Origin: Escherichia phage RB32
Direction: 5' to 3' (one strand)
Length of the DNA stretch: 64,000 nt
Sequence record: NC_008515.1
Position numbers and translations under genes: made by a program. The notes under the pieces are model-generated. The model had not been told where the DNA came from. It saw only the letters and a list, made by a program, of their open reading frames with translations, and ran no database searches. This document shows positions 6,485-38,686 of this stretch, piece after piece (the first letter of the stretch is position 1; each line of letters starts with the position of its first letter).

Positions 6485-8050
6485 ATGACTATCAAAACTA
6501 AAGCTGAACTTTTGAACAAATGGAAGCCATTACTGGAAGGTGAAGGTTTACCGGAAATTGCTAATAGCAAACAAGCGATTATCGCTAAAATCTTTGAAAA
6601 CCAGGAAAAAGATTTCCAGACAGCTCCAGAGTACAAAGACGAAAAAATCGCTCAGGCGTTCGGTTCTTTCTTAACAGAAGCTGAAATCGGTGGTGACCAC
6701 GGTTACAATGCTACTAACATCGCTGCTGGTCAGACTTCTGGCGCAGTAACTCAGATTGGCCCAGCTGTTATGGGTATGGTACGTCGTGCTATTCCTAACC
6801 TGATTGCTTTCGATATTTGCGGTGTTCAGCCGATGAACAGCCCGACCGGTCAGGTATTCGCACTGCGCGCAGTATATGGTAAAGACCCAATCGCTGCCGG
6901 CGCTAAAGAAGCATTCCACCCAATGTATGGTCCAGATGCAATGTTCTCTGGTCAGGGTGCTGCTAAGAAATTCGCAGCTCTGGCTGCTAGCACACAAACC
7001 ACAGTAGGTGATATCTATACTCACTTCTTCCAGGACACTGGTACTGTGTATCTGCAGGCTTCTGCTCAAGTAACAATTAGTTCTACTGCAGATGATGCAG
7101 CTAAATTAGATGCTGAAATTAAGAAACAAATGGAAGCTGGTGCACTGGTAGAAATCGCTGAAGGTATGGCTACTTCTATCGCTGAACTTCAGGAAAGTTT
7201 CAACGGTTCCACCGATAACCCATGGAATGAAATGGGCTTCCGTATCGATAAACAAGTTATCGAAGCTAAATCGCGCCAGCTGAAAGCTGCTTACTCTATC
7301 GAATTAGCACAAGACCTCCGCGCTGTTCACGGTATGGATGCTGATGCTGAACTGTCTGGTATTCTGGCTACAGAAATCATGCTGGAAATCAACCGTGAAG
7401 TCGTTGATTGGATTAACTACTCAGCTCAGGTTGGTAAATCTGGTATGACCCTGACTCCGGGTTCTAAAGCTGGTGTATTTGACTTCCAGGACCCAATCGA
7501 TATTCGTGGTGCTCGCTGGGCAGGTGAATCCTTTAAAGCTCTGTTGTTCCAGATTGACAAAGAAGCAGTTGAAATTGCTCGTCAGACCGGTCGTGGTGAA
7601 GGTAACTTCATTATCGCTTCCCGTAACGTAGTTAACGTTCTGGCTTCAGTTGATACCGGCATTTCTTATGCTGCACAGGGTCTGGCTACCGGCTTTAACA
7701 CTGATACTACCAAGTCAGTATTTGCTGGTGTTCTGGGTGGTAAATACCGTGTATATATCGACCAGTATGCTAAACAGGATTACTTCACTGTAGGTTATAA
7801 AGGTCCGAACGAAATGGATGCTGGTATTTACTACGCTCCATATGTAGCTCTGACTCCACTGCGTGGTTCTGATCCGAAGAACTTCCAACCAGTAATGGGA
7901 TTCAAAACTCGTTACGGTATCGGTATCAACCCATTTGCAGAATCCGCTGCTCAGGCTCCGGCTTCTCGCATCCAGAGCGGTATGCCTTCTATTCTGAATA
8001 GCCTTGGTAAAAACGCTTACTTCCGCCGTGTATATGTTAAAGGTATCTAA
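6485..8050 (+). CDS. 23: Major capsid protein gp23
   Basis: 521 aa; N-terminus MTIKTKAELLNKWKPLLEGEG recognised as T4 gp23. Confidence 0.97.
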   Translation: MTIKTKAELLNKWKPLLEGEGLPEIANSKQAIIAKIFENQEKDFQTAPEYKDEKIAQAFGSFLTEAEIGGDHGYNATNIAAGQTSGAVTQIGPAVMGMVRRAIPNLIAFDICGVQPMNSPTGQVFALRAVYGKDPIAAGAKEAFHPMYGPDAMFSGQGAAKKFAALAASTQTTVGDIYTHFFQDTGTVYLQASAQVTISSTADDAAKLDAEIKKQMEAGALVEIAEGMATSIAELQESFNGSTDNPWNEMGFRIDKQVIEAKSRQLKAAYSIELAQDLRAVHGMDADAELSGILATEIMLEINREVVDWINYSAQVGKSGMTLTPGSKAGVFDFQDPIDIRGARWAGESFKALLFQIDKEAVEIARQTGRGEGNFIIASRNVVNVLASVDTGISYAAQGLATGFNTDTTKSVFAGVLGGKYRVYIDQYAKQDYFTVGYKGPNEMDAGIYYAPYVALTPLRGSDPKNFQPVMGFKTRYGIGINPFAESAAQAPASRIQSGMPSILNSLGKNAYFRRVYVKGI

Positions 8051-9423: not shown

Positions 9424-9445
9424 GGGACCTTTCGGTCCCTTTTTA
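9424..9445. terminator. Bidirectional terminator hairpin (GGGACC-TTTC-GGTCCC) between convergent genes 24 and rnlB
   Basis: Perfect stem with T-run on + strand and T-rich tail on - strand. Confidence 0.65.
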
Positions 9446-22940: not shown

Positions 22941-22944
22941 CAAT

Positions 22945-22962
22945 GGGGACCTTTCGGTCCCC
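22945..22962. terminator. Hairpin GGGGACC-TTTC-GGTCCCC after gene 54, followed by a T-rich tract on +
   Basis: Perfect 7-bp stem; same motif family as the gene 23 and 24 terminators. Confidence 0.6.
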
Positions 22963-22968
22963 ATATTT

Positions 22969-23259
22969 TTATTTACGGAATGAAATGAAAGCAGCAACTG
23001 AAGCAACTAAACTGTCTTCAATATAAACTTCAATTTTTACCGGAGCTTCTGACTCGAATTTACCTGTTACTACACCCTGAAAAATACTTTCAGTCTGTTC
23101 TGGCTTTGAAAAATTTTCAGAAGGAAAAATTCCGAACTTTTTATCTGTTCCAAAAATTTTAATAAATTCATCGTAAACTGCTTCATTAAAAGCATTATCA
23201 GCAGGAATAACGCCTTCAACTACAAGTTCTTGACCTAAAAAGCGTAAAGAAGATTTCAT
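22969..23259 (-). CDS. Hypothetical protein (position of T4 alt.-3)
   Basis: 96 aa ORF; ATG 7 nt downstream of a GAGGA SD inside the repeated early-promoter cassette. Confidence 0.65.
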   Translation of the reverse strand: MKSSLRFLGQELVVEGVIPADNAFNEAVYDEFIKIFGTDKKFGIFPSENFSKPEQTESIFQGVVTGKFESEAPVKIEVYIEDSLVASVAAFISFRK

Positions 23260-23266
23260 TTTGTGT

Positions 23267-23320
23267 TCCTCATGTTATGTCAGTAAGACTACTATAACAC
23301 AACACGAGGGACTTGTAAAC
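23267..23320 (-). promoter_or_regulatory. Early promoter cassette (-35 GTTTAC, TGn-TATAGT -10, 5'UTR, GAGGA SD); copy 1 of a 54-bp perfect repeat
   Basis: Read on - strand: GTTTACAAGTCCCTCGTGTTGTGTTATAGTAGTCTTACTGACATAACATGAGGA; identical to 38633-38686. Confidence 0.6.
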
Positions 23321-25377
23321 TACATTTTGAACTTTTTAGACATTCCGTTGATGTTAACCAAAGAAGCTAAGATTTGAGAAACTTCATTTTCCTCTTCTTT
23401 TGATTCTTCTACAAGGAATTGATTAAATCCAGTCATTGGACGAACTTCACCAGTTTCCATTAGATGGTCGCCATCATATACTGATTCCTCTAATTGTTCA
23501 GAAGGAGGAACGATTGTACCTTCGATTAGATACTTGTTATAAGCAGTTTCTTTCATAAAGTACGTACTTACTTTATTAATCTTCAGTAAAATTCCACGCG
23601 GTAGAATAACTTCAGCTTCTGATGGAAATCCTGATAAATGACCTGGAACGATAACTTTGATTCGCTCAGCTCCTTTAATTACCATACCCACGCTAGTTTC
23701 AGCATCTTCATTGGCATATGTAGAATGACTACCCGTATGCATTAAATCTTCTGCATCAACGGAACCTTCTCCTTCACCAGAAAATACTGCGCCGGAATCA
23801 TCTAGAGCCATATAGTTTTTACCATGCTCACCGAAGATATTTGGTTTAAGCGATGTGGATACGAAGTTCTTGAAATAGAACATTTTATTTTCAATGTTAT
23901 GACGCAAAGTTTTAAAGGTAACTTCTTGTCCACGATAAAGCGTAGTTCCTGGAGGAAGAACCGAACCTTTAGCGAATGCAGAATCCAACGTCTCGATGTG
24001 CTTAATGGCACGTTCCATATATTCTTCACGGGTAGAATCTGGTTTACCCAAAAGGAACGAGTTCATTTCAACATATGAATCTGCACAATAATCTTCAATT
24101 ACATCAGATTCAGCTTGAGTTAATCCTTTTGGAGTTACTTCGGTGCTTGCGTATTCATATGCCTGAGCGGCAGATTCATTAATCAATTTATAAATGCCAT
24201 TCATTACAAATTGAATAATAGCTGTCTTTTCATCTGGCGTAGCTTTAGAACCTTTAACCAAATCATTGATAATTTTCTTAATAACATCAAAGCTATTAGA
24301 AATATTAATATCAGCAAGATCGCTTAAAATTTTATCAGTTTTATAATCAAAGAATTCTTTATTCTTTAAATATTCTTGAGAACCTTGATATGTTATATCG
24401 CTCTGCAACTTGATGGATGGATCACGTAAACGTGCATGGGCTAATGCAATATGATTTCGGAAGTTTTCTAGTTCATAATCGCTAGATTTAAAACGAGAAG
24501 CACTCCTCATACCACCGATAGCTCCTTTGCTGAAGTTTGAACCAATCTGAATAACGCCAGAGTTCATTGGTCCTTCTGCTTTATATACCGGAACTTTAGA
24601 TTCAAACTCTTGATATTTCTTAGCAGCGAAGCTATCACCCTGAAGTGAAGCATCAACAGTAGAATATTGAGCTTGTGCTGCTAATCGACGACTAATTTTA
24701 GTTTTCTGAATAACAGCTTGGTCCGTGCGCTTATCATTTTCTAAAGCAATAGAAGCAGCAACAGCGACAGCTTTAGGAACAGCATTACCTGTTTTAACGT
24801 CTACATAAACATCACCAACCTTTGATTCAACTTTTGTGAATAACTCAGTTGAAATAGGAGGTACACCTGGAATGTCTTCTAAATTGGCATTTTTACGGTA
24901 AACCATAATATATGCATACTTTTTATCATAGTCCCAGATTTCCTTTAAAAGAACATATCGACCTGCTCCTTTAGTACGTACTAAACGGTCAGCAATAACT
25001 TGCATTTGACGAGCAGCGCCATTTGTTTTACTTTTTAGTACGCGGAATAGGCATGCGTCAATTTTATACTGCTTCATTGTTTGAAGAGCAGTATCAAAAA
25101 CAGCATTAATGACACCAATTGGATTTCCACCCAAGTTTCTAAGCTTAACCAGCGATAATTTCTCGTTGACACCTATCATTACGATATGCATCATTTTATC
25201 GCCTGGCTTAACGTTTTTATTCGTATCACCACCAGAGGTGTATGTACAAAATCTAAATCCAGGAAGCACGCTTTCTTCGCCGGCTTGAATAGCAAAAATT
25301 TGTGGTATTTTATGCTTAGGATTTAAGTTAACAACCGGCGCCGAAGCGCCGTCAAATAATTCTGTAATAAGTTCCAT
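23320..25377 (-). CDS. Alt-like ADP-ribosyltransferase paralogue (capsid-packaged internal protein type)
   Basis: 685 aa; N-terminal ~230 aa closely similar to Alt; C-terminal region keeps R (YRG), STS and EAE catalytic motifs; N-terminal MELITE suits gp21 processing. Confidence 0.85.
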   Translation of the reverse strand: MELITELFDGASAPVVNLNPKHKIPQIFAIQAGEESVLPGFRFCTYTSGGDTNKNVKPGDKMMHIVMIGVNEKLSLVKLRNLGGNPIGVINAVFDTALQTMKQYKIDACLFRVLKSKTNGAARQMQVIADRLVRTKGAGRYVLLKEIWDYDKKYAYIMVYRKNANLEDIPGVPPISTELFTKVESKVGDVYVDVKTGNAVPKAVAVAASIALENDKRTDQAVIQKTKISRRLAAQAQYSTVDASLQGDSFAAKKYQEFESKVPVYKAEGPMNSGVIQIGSNFSKGAIGGMRSASRFKSSDYELENFRNHIALAHARLRDPSIKLQSDITYQGSQEYLKNKEFFDYKTDKILSDLADINISNSFDVIKKIINDLVKGSKATPDEKTAIIQFVMNGIYKLINESAAQAYEYASTEVTPKGLTQAESDVIEDYCADSYVEMNSFLLGKPDSTREEYMERAIKHIETLDSAFAKGSVLPPGTTLYRGQEVTFKTLRHNIENKMFYFKNFVSTSLKPNIFGEHGKNYMALDDSGAVFSGEGEGSVDAEDLMHTGSHSTYANEDAETSVGMVIKGAERIKVIVPGHLSGFPSEAEVILPRGILLKINKVSTYFMKETAYNKYLIEGTIVPPSEQLEESVYDGDHLMETGEVRPMTGFNQFLVEESKEEENEVSQILASLVNINGMSKKFKM

Positions 25378-25380
25378 GAT

Positions 25381-27477
25381 TTATCCTTGAACGAACTTGT
25401 AAGGCATGTTTGTAATATCTATGCAAGACGCAATAATTCCAAGAGATGATTCTACTTTCTGTTTAACATTTGATGAAACAAATGATGCAAAGTCAACTCT
25501 GTCTTCTACTTCAATATCACCTGTCATTGCAACTACTTCGCCGGTTTCCATTAGACAGTCTCCGTCATAAATTACCGATTCGGTGAGTTCTTCTGTGGTC
25601 ATAACTTCAGCTTGAATGAGTTTTGTATTATTAGATGTTGTTCCGTCATTATTAGAAGCATCAGTTATTTTATTAACTTTGACCATCAACCCGCGCGGTA
25701 GAATAACTTCAGCTTCTGTTGCTATTCCGAGACTTCCTGGATATACAACATTAACTTTATGAGCTCCATCAATTGCCCATCCTATTTGAACTTTAACGTA
25801 TTCAGGATTTTCTTTATACGCTCTTATTTCGTTTGGATTAATAGTTATTCCTTCTTCATTTTTATCAACTGTTAATTCGTTACGAGCTTCTGGTTCTAAA
25901 AGACCAATACCAGCATGTGTAATTCCAAAACGTCCAAAAATGATAGGAGTTAAAGAAGTAGATACAAAATTTCTGAAATAGAACACTTTATTTTTAACTA
26001 GTGCTTCGTATATAGGAGCAGTCATACTTTGAGCACGATAAACTGTAATGCCTTCCGGTATGCGGTCACCATTTTCAAAAGCTGAATCTAAATTATTTAT
26101 AGCAGATTCAATTTCTTTTTCACTCATTACATCATATCGTTCTGGATTGTAACGACCTAAAAGAAGATTATTAATGTCTGTATATCCTGAACCACAATAC
26201 TCTCTAATACCGCGCTTTTGTGATGGAGTATATTTAGAACCATCACGGGCAATAGTAATATCAATCATTGGACCAGCACCAATTCCAGAAAAGCTATAAA
26301 TCATTCGTTTGAGGAATTTAGTTTTTGCTGCATTCCAGGCATTTTTAGTTATTTCTCCCCAGACTTCATCTGGTTGCCCTTTACGAGTTTTATTATGTTT
26401 ATCAAGCCAATTATCTTTATATTCTTCAAAGAATTTATTAACAGCTGCTGCGTATTTCTCTAAACATTTTATTGAAGTAGTTGGCTCATTTTTTATCGCG
26501 TTAAAAATTACATCTTTAATTTTTTCGGAAACTTCATCAACCTCACTTTTTGAAAAGAATTTATAGTCATAGTGAAGTTCATTCGCAGTTCCTTCGGCAA
26601 TAATTTTTGCTGCCTTAGTTTTAGAAGCTAATGAATTAATTCCAAGCTTCATTTCTTCTGCTTCGGGAATTAAAGGAGCGGTAGCAGGTTTATTGAAATT
26701 AGCTGCGGTAGATTCATACTTCTGGAATAATTCACTTTCAAACCTAGAAGATTCCAATGATTGACTTTGCGCAATTGCTCTACGGGAAATTTTAACTTTA
26801 ACGATTACAGCTTGGTCAGAACGTTTATCATTTTCTTGCGCAATAGATGCTGCAATTGCCTCATTTTTAGTTACTTGGGCTCCAGTATCTTTATTGATAT
26901 AAACATCACCGACCTTCGATTCAACTTTAGTAAAGAGCTCGGTACTAATTTCCGGAACTCCTGGAATGTCTTCTAGTGATACATTTTTGCGATGTATAAG
27001 AATATATGCATACTTTTTATCATAATCCCAGAGTTCCTTAAGAAGGACGTATCTACCACCTGAACGACTACGGATAAGTCTATCAGCAATAACTTGAATT
27101 TGTCGAGCTTGGCCAGCAGTTTTAGACTTAAGAATACGAAGCATACAAGCATCAATTTTATACTGACGCATCGTTTGCATTGCAACAGTAAAAACTGAAT
27201 TGATATAATTAATTGGGCTTGGACCAAGACCTTTTAATTTAGCAATTGAACCTTTAGCAGTTAATGTAAAAGGAACAATATGCATCATTTTATCGCCCAT
27301 TTTTAAATCGCGATTAGTATCACCTCCAGATGTATAGGTACATAAACGAAAGCCTGGTTGTTCAATTGCATCATCAACATGAACTGAAAAAATTTGCGGT
27401 ATTTTCTTCTTTGGATTTAAGTTTGTAATCGGAAGAGTAGTATCTTCGTCAAATAATTCTGTAATGAGTTCCATCAT
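25381..27477 (-). CDS. alt: Alt, RNA polymerase ADP-ribosyltransferase (injected internal head protein)
   Basis: 698 aa; N-terminus MELITELFDEDTTLPITNL recognised as T4 Alt; R-STS-EAE motifs present. Confidence 0.9.
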   Translation of the reverse strand: MMELITELFDEDTTLPITNLNPKKKIPQIFSVHVDDAIEQPGFRLCTYTSGGDTNRDLKMGDKMMHIVPFTLTAKGSIAKLKGLGPSPINYINSVFTVAMQTMRQYKIDACMLRILKSKTAGQARQIQVIADRLIRSRSGGRYVLLKELWDYDKKYAYILIHRKNVSLEDIPGVPEISTELFTKVESKVGDVYINKDTGAQVTKNEAIAASIAQENDKRSDQAVIVKVKISRRAIAQSQSLESSRFESELFQKYESTAANFNKPATAPLIPEAEEMKLGINSLASKTKAAKIIAEGTANELHYDYKFFSKSEVDEVSEKIKDVIFNAIKNEPTTSIKCLEKYAAAVNKFFEEYKDNWLDKHNKTRKGQPDEVWGEITKNAWNAAKTKFLKRMIYSFSGIGAGPMIDITIARDGSKYTPSQKRGIREYCGSGYTDINNLLLGRYNPERYDVMSEKEIESAINNLDSAFENGDRIPEGITVYRAQSMTAPIYEALVKNKVFYFRNFVSTSLTPIIFGRFGITHAGIGLLEPEARNELTVDKNEEGITINPNEIRAYKENPEYVKVQIGWAIDGAHKVNVVYPGSLGIATEAEVILPRGLMVKVNKITDASNNDGTTSNNTKLIQAEVMTTEELTESVIYDGDCLMETGEVVAMTGDIEVEDRVDFASFVSSNVKQKVESSLGIIASCIDITNMPYKFVQG

Positions 27478-31855: not shown

Positions 31856-31884
31856 ATAATATCATATCCTGTACCAAAGTAAAC
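31856..31884 (-). promoter_or_regulatory. Early promoter (GTTTAC, 17-nt spacer, TATTAT) upstream of the 121-aa ORF
   Basis: T4-early-type -35 GTTTAC and -10 TATTAT on - strand; -10 bracketed by inverted repeat GTACAGG/CCTGTAC. Confidence 0.5.
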
Positions 31885-32246: not shown

Positions 32247-32276
32247 ATACTATCACAAAGGAACTATACTGTAAAC
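32247..32276 (-). promoter_or_regulatory. Early promoter (GTTTAC, 18-nt spacer, TAGTAT) upstream of the 110-aa ORF
   Basis: Read on - strand directly upstream of the ORF start. Confidence 0.45.
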
Positions 32277-37781: not shown

Positions 37782-38131
37782 TTAGAAAGGTCCTGGATGT
37801 CTTCTGCGAACTTGTTGAAGGAGTTGTTGATTTGTTTTTCAACCAATCCTGGCTTATGAGCCACCACATCCGCCTTCTTTGCATCTTTGCGCAGTTTTTC
37901 ATTTTCACGCTCAATAGCAGCAATTGCCTCACGATTTTTAGTATTCATCGCATCAATATAATTATACTGAATTCGCAAATTATTTAATGCTAAAGCGTTT
38001 TCATTGGCTGTTTTTGTAATTTCAGTAACTGATGTTTCTAATCTTTCTACCTTATTTTTTAAAATAATAGATGTTCCGCCAAATGCTATTACAAGTAATA
38101 GCAATCCAGTTGTTGTATTACTTAATTGCAT
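37778..38131 (-). CDS. Inner-membrane spanin (Rz-like); corresponds to T4 pseT.3
   Basis: 117 aa; N-terminal transmembrane helix then coiled-coil periplasmic domain. Confidence 0.7.
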   Translation of the reverse strand: MQLSNTTTGLLLLVIAFGGTSIILKNKVERLETSVTEITKTANENALALNNLRIQYNYIDAMNTKNREAIAAIERENEKLRKDAKKADVVAHKPGLVEKQINNSFNKFAEDIQDLSK

Positions 38132-38628
38132 AAAGTTTTAATAACCTCTATAATATCGTCTTGAGAAAGACCGTTAATTAAAATATGATGTTCCGCCGGA
38201 GATTTAGAAATTTTAAAGCATGCCGCAACATCTTCTGCCATATCCGATGCGCTACGATTTGGATTACTAATTCCAAGACGATGTTTTCCTGTTAAAGGAT
38301 TAACGATGATATAGCATTTACAGCTATTGATATGAACATTAGGTTGAGTCTGATTAATGAACACTTCACAATCATACTTAGCGAGTTGATTTTCTAAAAA
38401 GACTTTCATCTCTTCAACCGCATCAGGAAGCATATCACGGGCTTGCTCAAGACGACGATTTCGATATTCTTTAATGGTCGTTTTCCGCTTGACTTGCTTA
38501 GCTAAATCTTTCTTAAGATCGGTGATATATCCAACTCGACGATTTCCTTTGAATACAGAAATCCCATCTGTAGTATCACCGTATGCTTCAACGACCATTT
38601 CAGTAGTAATAAGTTGTAAATCCATCAT
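38122..38628 (-). CDS. alc: Alc, inhibitor of host transcription on cytosine DNA
   Basis: 168 aa; recognised T4 Alc sequence. Confidence 0.9.
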   Translation of the reverse strand: MMDLQLITTEMVVEAYGDTTDGISVFKGNRRVGYITDLKKDLAKQVKRKTTIKEYRNRRLEQARDMLPDAVEEMKVFLENQLAKYDCEVFINQTQPNVHINSCKCYIIVNPLTGKHRLGISNPNRSASDMAEDVAACFKISKSPAEHHILINGLSQDDIIEVIKTLCN

Positions 38629-38632
38629 AAAG

Positions 38633-38686
38633 TCCTCATGTTATGTCAGTAAGACTACTATAACACAACACGAGGGACTTGTAAAC
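38633..38686 (-). promoter_or_regulatory. Early promoter cassette upstream of alc; copy 2 of the 54-bp perfect repeat
   Basis: Identical 54 nt to 23267-23320; -35 GTTTAC sits 3 nt after the rnlA stop; GAGGA SD 7 nt before the alc ATG. Confidence 0.6.

What the first reader, a model, noticed from the sequence alone, without database searches (positions are those of the whole stretch)
23267..23320. 54-bp perfect direct repeat (second copy 38633-38686) carrying a complete early promoter, 5'UTR and SD
An identical 54-nt string precedes two unrelated genes 15.4 kb apart (the alt.-3-position ORF and alc). On the - strand it reads -35 GTTTAC, an 18-nt spacer, TGT-TATAGT and a GAGGA SD, so both genes would share promoter strength and leader. 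Two same-orientation perfect repeats are also a substrate for homologous deletion of the intervening block (alt, gene 30, cd, pseT, spanins). Perfect identity beyond the promoter hexamers suggests recent copying or selection on the leader RNA.
Basis: seen in the sequence. Interest (0 to 1): 0.5.

Follow-up and report, generated by a model that had tools for sequence, protein, structure and literature searches.

The report
Duplicated early-promoter hairpin cassette (alc, alt.-3)
The 54-base repeat is real: it is a T4-type early promoter plus ribosome-binding site that also folds into a hairpin hiding that site in longer transcripts, it sits in front of alc and alt.-3 in nearly all T4-like (Tequatrovirus) phage records searched, and it is an ordinary regulatory cassette rather than a recent or dangerous duplication.

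Summary
Observation confirmed. An exact 54-nt direct repeat lies at 23267-23320 and 38633-38686 (read on the - strand), in front of alt.-3 and alc. The window is phage RB33.

It is not RB33-specific or recent. The 54-mer gives 995 places in 498 Tequatrovirus records, T4 included (53/54 between its copies). Copies within a genome differ by 0-5 bases, and some multi-site variants occur at both loci, which points to occasional gene conversion.

The promoter reading holds: TTTACA-17-TGn-TATAGT plus GAGGA. As RNA it folds at -22 kcal/mol (z -5.4), pairing the promoter spacer with the leader and Shine-Dalgarno. A transcript from the cassette's own promoter would lack the 5' arm.

In front of alc this arrangement is kept in six Tevenvirinae genera with different, co-varying arm sequences (own-arm duplex -20.5 vs cross-genus -11.7 kcal/mol; 2/720 permutations). 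alt.-3 in five other genera has a different promoter cassette, so Tequatrovirus probably copied the alc cassette onto alt.-3.

The deletion idea is not supported. The interval holds genes 30 and 31, and 0 of 498 records carry a deletion or duplication junction.

Closest known kinds: PeSL promoter/stem-loop cassettes and the RBS-hiding hairpins of T4 e, soc, 49 and I-TevI. Interest is modest.

The parts
23267..23320 (-). Cassette copy A (54 nt), in front of alt.-3; its first base is the last base of the alt.-2 stop codon
38633..38686 (-). Cassette copy B (54 nt), in the rnlA-alc spacer
23314..23319 (-). -35 hexamer TTTACA of copy A (T4 early consensus GTTTAC starts at 23320)
   Evidence: sequence
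23291..23299 (-). Extended -10 of copy A: TGT (23299-23297) + TATAGT (23296-23291)
   Evidence: TG_before_second yes
38680..38685 (-). -35 hexamer TTTACA of copy B
38657..38665 (-). Extended -10 of copy B: TGT + TATAGT
23268..23309 (-). Predicted RNA hairpin of copy A (cassette nt 12-53). 5' arm 23309-23296 (promoter spacer and first base of the -10), 2-nt bulge, inner stem 23293-23290 / 23285-23282, loop 23289-23286, 3' arm 23281-23268 (leader + SD)
   Evidence: -22 kcal/mol, z -5.4, 0/200 shuffles; kept in 111-nt context
38634..38675 (-). Predicted RNA hairpin of copy B (same pairs)
   Evidence: 111-nt context: -31.3 kcal/mol, z -4.3; for conservation in other genera
23267..23271 (-). Shine-Dalgarno GAGGA of alt.-3; G50, A51, G52 and G53 are paired in the hairpin; 7 nt before the ATG at 23259
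38633..38637 (-). Shine-Dalgarno GAGGA of alc; 7 nt before the annotated ATG at 38625 (4 nt before an ATG at 38628)
23284..23284 (-). Expected transcription start of copy A (about 7 nt after the -10; inferred, not mapped). It lies in the descending strand of the hairpin, so the cassette's own transcript lacks the 5' arm
   Evidence: inference from sigma-70 geometry; (own-transcript leaders fold at only -4.5 / -1.8 kcal/mol, z about 0)
38650..38650 (-). Expected transcription start of copy B (inferred)
   Evidence: as above
22969..23259 (-). alt.-3 (96 aa), gene served by copy A
   Evidence: PMC11618068: non-essential, function unknown, C-terminal extension mutants escape CmdTAC
38122..38625 (-). 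alc (inhibitor of host transcription), gene served by copy B

Best explanation
The 54-bp unit is a composite T4-type regulatory cassette with three overlapping functions.

(a) As DNA it is a strong sigma-70 early promoter: TTTACA, 17 bp, TGn, TATAGT.

(b) Its transcribed part is a roughly 18-nt leader ending in the Shine-Dalgarno GAGGA.

(c) The promoter spacer is complementary to that leader/SD. Any RNA that enters the cassette from upstream therefore folds into an 18-bp hairpin that buries the SD. Such RNA would be rnlA read-through for alc, or alt/alt.-2 read-through for alt.-3. RNA started at the cassette's own promoter begins in the descending strand and leaves the SD free.

The likely effect is that alc, and alt.-3 in Tequatrovirus, are translated only from their own immediate-early transcripts and not from long delayed-early, middle or late read-through RNA. 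This is the same logic as the T4 e, soc, 49 and I-TevI hairpins, but with an early promoter inside instead of a late one.

The architecture is ancestral at alc, where it is seen in six genera. In the Tequatrovirus ancestor the whole alc cassette replaced the different early-promoter cassette in front of alt.-3. Since then the two copies have exchanged variants now and then by gene conversion.

Shown here: the repeat, its promoter-like anatomy, the predicted hairpin, arm co-evolution, and the distribution across phages. Inferred: the transcription start, read-through, the translational effect, and the direction of copying.
For: Repeat and promoter anatomy.

Genus-wide presence: the 54-mer gives 995 places in 498 records. 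T4 has 53/54 identity between its two copies.

Hairpin: -22 kcal/mol, z -5.4, 0/200 shuffles, and it is kept in 111-nt contexts at both loci. Leaders of the cassette's own transcripts are unstructured. All 23 Tequatrovirus haplotypes keep a hairpin of -15.8 to -25.2 kcal/mol. The sense strand folds at -22.0 against -12.8 for the antisense strand, because three pairs are G.U.

Substitutions inside the genus are mostly in the loop or bulge, or are wobble-compatible. There is one full C-G to U-G to U-A series.

Across genera: the rnlA-alc spacers of Karam-, Moon-, Jiaoda-, Dhaka- and Gelderlandvirus have GTTTACA followed by a spacer complementary to their own SD region, with different sequences and compensatory changes. 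Own-arm duplex energy averages -20.5 against -11.7 kcal/mol for cross-genus pairings, and only 2 of 720 permutations do as well.

No U-tract follows the hairpin, and the scan does not call it terminator-like.

Read-through is plausible. No terminator-like site lies between rnlA and alc or between alt and alt.-3, and a late-promoter motif sits upstream of alt.

alt.-3 upstream regions in five other genera are a different cassette without SD pairing.

Gene conversion: four haplotypes, including two double variants, are shared between the two loci. Intragenomic difference averages 2.3 against 2.71 between genomes, permutation p about 0.02.

Precedent: e, soc, 49 and I-TevI (PMC3014915); T4 early promoters as UP/-35/TGn/-10 promoters (PMC2988021).
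Against: No transcription start, transcript or translation data were available for either locus; no T4 TSS map was found in the paper library.

Within Tequatrovirus, covariation alone is not significant: 102 of 500 shuffles reach the observed score.

Mosigvirus alc lacks the hairpin (-7.7 kcal/mol), so it is not indispensable.

In a 60-nt spacer, overlap of promoter, hairpin and SD could partly reflect compaction rather than selection for SD masking.

Hairpins centred on the -10 occur at other early promoters in the window without touching the SD. This favours a more general role, such as attenuation or RNA stability.

The genomes sampled for the conversion test were chosen for divergent cassettes, and p is only about 0.02.

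The direction of copying rests on five outgroup genera, with one genome examined for each.
Confidence: 0.6

Rival explanations
1. The hairpin is mainly a transcription attenuator or 3'-end stabiliser for the upstream mRNA (rnlA, alt.-2). This is the 'stem-loop' half of a PeSL promoter/terminator cassette, and pairing with the SD is a by-product of packing everything into 60 nt.
For: PeSL stem-loops in RB49/phi1 were shown to terminate transcription (PMC2839356). An annotation pipeline called a rho-independent terminator on the alt.-3 copy of phage SA20RB. Other early promoters in the window have -10-centred hairpins that do not include the SD (31884, 35690, 46853).
Against: No U-run follows the hairpin at either copy or in any of the six genera, and the scan does not call it terminator-like. 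In all six genera the 3' arm ends exactly on the SD. In PeSLs as described, the stem-loop lies upstream of the promoter rather than across it (PMC4122927).
Confidence: 0.2
2. The inverted repeat acts on DNA, not RNA. It would be a binding site for a dimeric regulator (for example in early-promoter shut-off), or a cruciform or recombination site that promotes cassette exchange.
For: The palindrome covers the promoter core. Cassettes of this kind sit at different genes in different genera. Arbiol et al. speculated that PeSL stem-loops may be targets of a recombination protein.
Against: In Tequatrovirus three pairs are G.U, and the common variants are wobble-compatible on the sense strand only (sense -22.0 against antisense -12.8 kcal/mol). 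Arm sequences differ completely between genera while complementarity is kept. That fits an RNA helix better than a conserved protein-binding sequence.
Confidence: 0.08
3. There is no function beyond two copies of a good promoter. The repeat is a neutral relic of one duplication, and its palindromic character and identity are incidental or due to recent copying in RB33.
For: Within the genus the cassette is not more conserved than its flanks: pairwise difference 3.6-5.0% against 0.6-2.5% in coding flanks in a sample biased towards divergent cassettes. Covariation within the genus is not significant.
Against: The pair is present with fixed boundaries in nearly all of the 498 records, so it is not recent. 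The arms co-evolve across six genera. A hairpin of this strength was never reached in 200 shuffles.
Confidence: 0.07

Closest known systems
PeSL (promoter-early stem-loop) regulatory cassettes of T4-type phages (Arbiol et al. 2010, PMC2839356; Comeau et al. 2014, PMC4122927)
   Same: [quoted passage not shown] It holds a strong sigma-70-like early promoter (PST/T4 consensus TTTACW-N17-TAYWAT), a stem-loop and an SD. It is repeated within a genome, long enough for T4 homologous recombination, and found at different genes in related phages.
   Different: The stem-loop spans the promoter and the SD instead of lying just upstream of the promoter, and has no terminator-like U-run. The two copies are 15.4 kb apart in a conserved block containing essential genes, not flanking a dispensable ORFan. 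No indel or mini-circle product is seen: 0 of 498 records carry a recombinant junction.
RBS-sequestering hairpins with an internal promoter in T4 genes e, soc, 49 and I-TevI (McPheeters et al. 1986; reviewed in PMC3014915)
   Same: The SD is buried in a helix in transcripts that come from upstream. A promoter placed inside the structure yields a shorter RNA that lacks the 5' strand and is translatable.
   Different: Those cases use late promoters (TATAAATA) and delay expression to late infection. Here the internal promoter is an early sigma-70 promoter, so the gate would restrict translation to the immediate-early period. The effect on translation is untested here. alc is not mentioned in that review, and alt.-3 is absent from its list of examples.
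T4 early promoters ('uber' UP/-35/TGn/-10 promoters; Hinton 2010, PMC2988021)
   Same: GTTTAC-type -35, 17-bp spacer, TGn, a near-consensus -10, and A/T-rich DNA upstream.
   Different: Two promoters share 54 identical bases including the whole spacer and leader. This goes well beyond the family consensus, and the spacer is constrained by complementarity to the SD.
Concerted evolution of dispersed short repeats by gene conversion
   Same: Multi-site variants occur at both loci, and intragenomic copies are slightly more alike than intergenomic ones.
   Different: Homogenisation is weak (0-5 differences per genome), and phage-phage recombination uncouples the two loci.

Membership tests
T4-type early (sigma-70) promoter | -35 GTTTAC/TTTACA, 17 (+/-1) bp spacer, -10 close to TATAAT | tested here: met
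   TTTACA-17-TATAGT at both copies, 10/12 matches
T4-type early (sigma-70) promoter | Extended -10 (TGn at -15 to -13) | tested here: met
   TGT directly before TATAGT at both copies
T4-type early (sigma-70) promoter | A/T-rich UP element at about -40 to -60 | tested here: inconclusive
   A/T-rich DNA is present upstream of both copies (alc: GAAAAATTATAAAAAATTTAT; alt.-3: TCTAAAAAGTTCAAAATGTA). It lies outside the repeat, differs between copies and was not scored.
T4-type early (sigma-70) promoter | [quoted passage not shown] | not testable with these tools
   No TSS data set for T4 or RB33 was found in the paper library
PeSL cassette | Intergenic unit combining an early promoter, a stable stem-loop and an SD | tested here: met
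   However, the stem-loop overlaps the promoter and SD rather than preceding the promoter.
PeSL cassette | Stem-loop works as a transcription terminator or attenuator | tested here: inconclusive
   No U-run and not terminator-like in the scan. Termination itself cannot be measured here.
PeSL cassette | Associated with insertions, deletions or replacements between related genomes | tested here: inconclusive
   Cassette replacement at alt.-3 between genera and related cassettes at other genes. No indel between the two copies in 498 records.
RBS-sequestering hairpin with internal promoter (T4 e / soc / 49 / I-TevI type) | SD and/or start codon paired in a stable helix in upstream-initiated RNA | tested here: met
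   Prediction only: G50-G53 paired, -22 kcal/mol, z -5.4. Arms co-evolve in six genera.
RBS-sequestering hairpin with internal promoter (T4 e / soc / 49 / I-TevI type) | A promoter inside the structure, so that its own transcript lacks the 5' strand | tested here: met
   The -10 is at cassette nt 25-30, at the top of the hairpin. The expected start at about nt 37 lies in the descending strand. The start is inferred.
RBS-sequestering hairpin with internal promoter (T4 e / soc / 49 / I-TevI type) | The internal promoter is a late promoter (TATAAATA) | tested here: not met
   No TATAAATA in the cassette; the promoter is of the early sigma-70 type
RBS-sequestering hairpin with internal promoter (T4 e / soc / 49 / I-TevI type) | Translation from long transcripts measurably reduced | not testable with these tools
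   Needs reporter or ribosome-binding assays
Intrinsic (rho-independent) terminator | G+C-rich hairpin followed directly by a U-run | tested here: not met
   The tails are AACACAAAAUG and CUUUAUGAUGG. Neither copy is listed among the terminator-like sites.
Any curated RNA family (Rfam 15) | Match at or above gathering score | tested here: not met
   Only a chance miRNA hit at E 0.78, 16.8 bits against a gathering score of 135. Nothing at copy A.

The most novel reading that the evidence does not exclude
An early promoter built into an SD-masking hairpin is a conserved 'immediate-early only' translational gate for the host-shutoff gene alc in at least six Tevenvirinae genera, and it was transplanted as a unit onto alt.-3 in Tequatrovirus. 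It would be the mirror image of the classical late-only gates of e, soc, 49 and I-TevI. It may also be one case of a wider rule that T4 early-promoter cassettes carry -10-centred hairpins that insulate each gene from read-through RNA.
Probability: 0.4. Interest if true: 0.5.

Novelty: new member of a known kind. Interest (0 to 1): 0.35.

Why it matters
For genome scanning, the lesson is that a perfect dispersed repeat in a T4-like genome can be an old, genus-wide regulatory cassette rather than a recent event or an instability hotspot.

For T4 biology, the cassette suggests a simple and testable rule. Alc, which blocks transcription of cytosine-containing DNA, and the little-known Alt.-3 protein would be made only from their own early transcripts, because every longer RNA hides their ribosome-binding site. 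That would add an early-only counterpart to the textbook late-only hairpin gates. It would also explain why the promoter spacer is conserved together with the leader. Finally, it gives a clean natural example of a promoter/leader module being copied from one gene to another.

Tried and rejected
- Recent copying in RB33: rejected. There are 995 places in 498 records with the same boundaries everywhere.
- Viable deletion or duplication between the copies: synthetic junction queries found 0 of 498 records with either junction.
- Intrinsic terminator: rejected, because there is no U-run.
- Known RNA family: none found.
- Covariation within Tequatrovirus: too little variation to be significant, with 102 of 500 shuffles reaching the observed score. 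Other genera were therefore used.
- Scans of IMG/VR and of JGI metagenomes for more copies returned only 9 and 10 stretches, so GenBank phage records were used instead.
- Literature: no mapped start site for either promoter and no description of the alc hairpin was found. Miller et al. 2003 is not held, 'alt.-3' occurs in only two held papers, and no T4 TSS map was found. Older T4 literature could therefore still contain it.
- An expected second copy of the genus-specific alc cassette in front of alt.-3 in Dhakavirus and Jiaodavirus: not found. Dhakavirus has none in that block. Jiaodavirus shares only the -10-to-SD half.

Full report
**1. The observation**

Read on the - strand, the string GTTTACAAGTCCCTCGTGTTGTGTTATAGTAGTCTTACTGACATAACATGAGGA occurs at 23267-23320 and 38633-38686 and nowhere else in the window, even with three mismatches. 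None of 100 dinucleotide-preserving shuffles gave a match. Identity ends abruptly on both sides. It is the only long perfect direct repeat in the window; the other repeat families are the alt/alt.-2 paralogy and coding repeats.

The window is 100% identical to phage RB33, KM607001.1. Copy A begins on the last base of the alt.-2 stop codon and ends 7 nt before the alt.-3 start codon. Copy B lies in the 64-nt rnlA-alc spacer.

**2. Distribution**

The 54-mer finds 498 phage records, all T4-like, with 995 places, that is about two per record. The best copy is at least 99% identical in 256 records and 95-99% in 237.

T4 itself has the alc copy identical to RB33 and an alt.-3 copy with one change, G40A.

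I examined 20 genomes or long contigs that hold both copies. Both always have the same 54-nt boundaries, and they differ from each other by 0-5 bases. The repeat is therefore old and genus-wide. RB33's perfect identity means only that it carries the commonest haplotype at both loci.

**3. Exchange between the copies**

The same variants turn up at both loci in different genomes. These include two double variants, A29+A32 and A32+T34, and four haplotypes are shared between the loci.

Copies within a genome are slightly more alike than copies from different genomes: mean 2.3 against 2.71 differences, permutation p about 0.02. This fits occasional gene conversion diluted by phage-phage recombination.

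The sample was chosen for divergent cassettes, so the diversity values are inflated. Those values are 3.6-5.0% in the cassette against 0.6-2.5% in coding flanks.

**4. Anatomy**

Both copies match a T4 early promoter: TTTACA, a 17-nt spacer, TGn, TATAGT. T4 early promoters are described as UP/-35/TGn/-10 promoters (PMC2988021). The A/T-rich upstream DNA lies outside the repeat and differs between the copies, so equal promoter strength does not follow.

The new point is that cassette nt 12-53 form a near-perfect inverted repeat. As RNA the 54-mer folds into an 18-bp hairpin of -22 kcal/mol (z -5.4, 0 of 200 shuffles). The hairpin is retained in 111-nt contexts at both loci.
- The 5' arm is the promoter spacer.
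- The -10 sits at the top of the hairpin.
- The 3' arm is the leader and covers G50-G53 of the GAGGA Shine-Dalgarno.

The expected start, about 7 nt after the -10 at cassette nt 37, lies in the descending strand. The promoter's own transcript therefore cannot form the helix, and its leader is unstructured (-1.8 and -4.5 kcal/mol, z about 0).

No U-run follows the hairpin, the scan does not call it terminator-like, and no Rfam family matches.

**5. Is the hairpin selected?**

Inside Tequatrovirus all 23 haplotypes keep a hairpin of -15.8 to -25.2 kcal/mol. Most variation is in the loop or bulge or is wobble-compatible, and one pair shows the series C-G, U-G, U-A. The sense strand folds much better than the antisense strand, -22.0 against -12.8 kcal/mol. 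There is too little variation for significance, however: 102 of 500 shuffles reach the observed covariation score.

Other genera settle the question. The rnlA-alc spacers of Karamvirus, Moonvirus, Jiaodavirus, Dhakavirus and Gelderlandvirus all have GTTTACA followed at once by a spacer complementary to their own SD region. The hairpins measure -16 to -22.5 kcal/mol, and the arm sequences differ and carry compensatory changes. One example is CCATTTGG/CCAAATGG against CCGTTTAG/CTAAACGG.

Pairing each 5' arm with its own 3' arm gives a mean of -20.5 kcal/mol. Pairing it with the 3' arms of other genera gives -11.7. Only 2 of 720 permutations do as well, namely the identity and the swap of the two identical arms.

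Mosigvirus is the exception: its alc promoter has no such hairpin.

**6. Origin of the second copy**

In Dhaka-, Jiaoda-, Gapriver-, Mosig- and Karamvirus the alt.-3 homologue is preceded by a different early-promoter cassette. That cassette has a small palindrome in the spacer and no SD pairing.

So the SD-masking cassette is ancestral at alc and specific to Tequatrovirus at alt.-3. The simplest reading is that the alc cassette was copied onto the alt.-3 promoter in the Tequatrovirus ancestor.

Related cassettes sit in front of other genes in other genera, for example after gene 32 in a Mosigvirus and before gp62 in S16. This matches the picture of shuffled promoter cassettes drawn for PeSLs (PMC2839356, PMC4122927).

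**7. Likely mechanism**

RNA arriving from upstream would mask the SD, while RNA from the cassette's own promoter would not.

Read-through is plausible at both loci. No terminator-like site lies between rnlA and alc or between alt and alt.-3, and a late-promoter motif lies just upstream of alt.

This is the logic demonstrated for T4 e and described for soc, 49 and I-TevI, where a late promoter lies inside an RBS-masking hairpin (PMC3014915). Here the promoter is early, so translation would be confined to the immediate-early period.

This step is inferred. A role as attenuator or RNA stabiliser, as for PeSL stem-loops, remains possible. It is favoured by the -10-centred hairpins at other early promoters in the window that do not touch the SD.

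**8. The deletion idea**

Fifty-four bases are enough for T4 recombination (Singer et al. 1982, as cited in PMC2839356). But the interval holds genes 30 and 31, which are classical essential T4 genes (established knowledge; annotation). Queries made of the predicted deletion junction and of the duplication junction found no record, out of 498, with either junction. Such recombinants may arise, but they are not seen among isolates.

**9. Verdict**

The promoter/leader/SD reading is correct but incomplete. 'Recent copying' is wrong, and the deletion hazard has no visible consequence.

The feature is a member of known kinds: T4 early-promoter cassettes, and RBS-masking hairpins with an internal promoter. 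It has one modestly new aspect, an early promoter embedded in an SD-masking hairpin. That aspect is conserved at alc across genera and duplicated onto alt.-3 in Tequatrovirus. I found no description of it, but Miller et al. 2003 was not held and the older T4 literature I recalled was not consulted.

Noticed in passing
L040:16262-16336, L041 around 7134-7200 (- strand), L042, L043, L044, L038: The alt.-3 promoters of five other genera, and the Mosigvirus alc promoter, carry a mini-palindrome in the -35/-10 spacer with an AAGGA-like loop. The arms differ between genera but stay complementary (GCAC/GTGC, ACACA/TGTGT, CCACA/TGTGG, ATCAC/GTGAT, CACCA/TGGTG). This looks like a second conserved spacer structure of unknown role.
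   Followed up: partly
window, - strand, promoter starts at 31884, 35690, 46853, 32276, 47586: Other GTTTAC-type early promoters in the window also have hairpins centred on the -10 (-16 kcal/mol, z about -3 to -4). At 32276 and 47586 the hairpins pair the SD. The promoter-in-hairpin layout may be common among T4 early promoters.
   Followed up: partly
window 23320-25377 and 25381-27474 (- strand): RB33 has a full-length alt paralogue (alt.-2, 685 aa) in tandem with alt, with 71-78% nucleotide identity in blocks. In T4 the same position holds only the broken remnants alt.-1 and alt.-2.
   Followed up: no
window 27505 (- strand): A late-promoter motif TATAAATA sits directly upstream of alt, just after a GGCCTTCGGGCC hairpin. 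Late transcripts from here would run through alt and alt.-2 into the alt.-3 cassette.
   Followed up: no
window 22943-22964; also 9424-9439: A bidirectional terminator-like hairpin GGGGACC-TTTC-GGTCCCC lies between the convergent genes 54 and alt.-3. A near-identical hairpin occurs at 9424.
   Followed up: no
window 23273-23256 and 38639-38625 (- strand): In both cassettes an AUG just before the SD (cassette nt 48-50) opens a 5-codon mini-ORF: AUG AGG AAC ACA AAA UGA and AUG AGG ACU UUA UGA. Its stop overlaps the start AUG of alt.-3, or the first AUG of alc, as AUGA. Read from the sequence only.
   Followed up: no
phage collection: The Dhakavirus alc-type cassette occurs 2-4 times per genome and the Jiaodavirus one twice, while the Karamvirus one is single-copy. 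Multi-copy promoter cassettes are therefore not peculiar to Tequatrovirus. The extra Dhakavirus sites were not located.
   Followed up: partly
L015 (phage SA20RB) 32792-32841: A public annotation calls the alt.-3 copy of the cassette a rho-independent terminator (WebGeSTer). The same record annotates several overlapping early-promoter/terminator pairs elsewhere.
   Followed up: no
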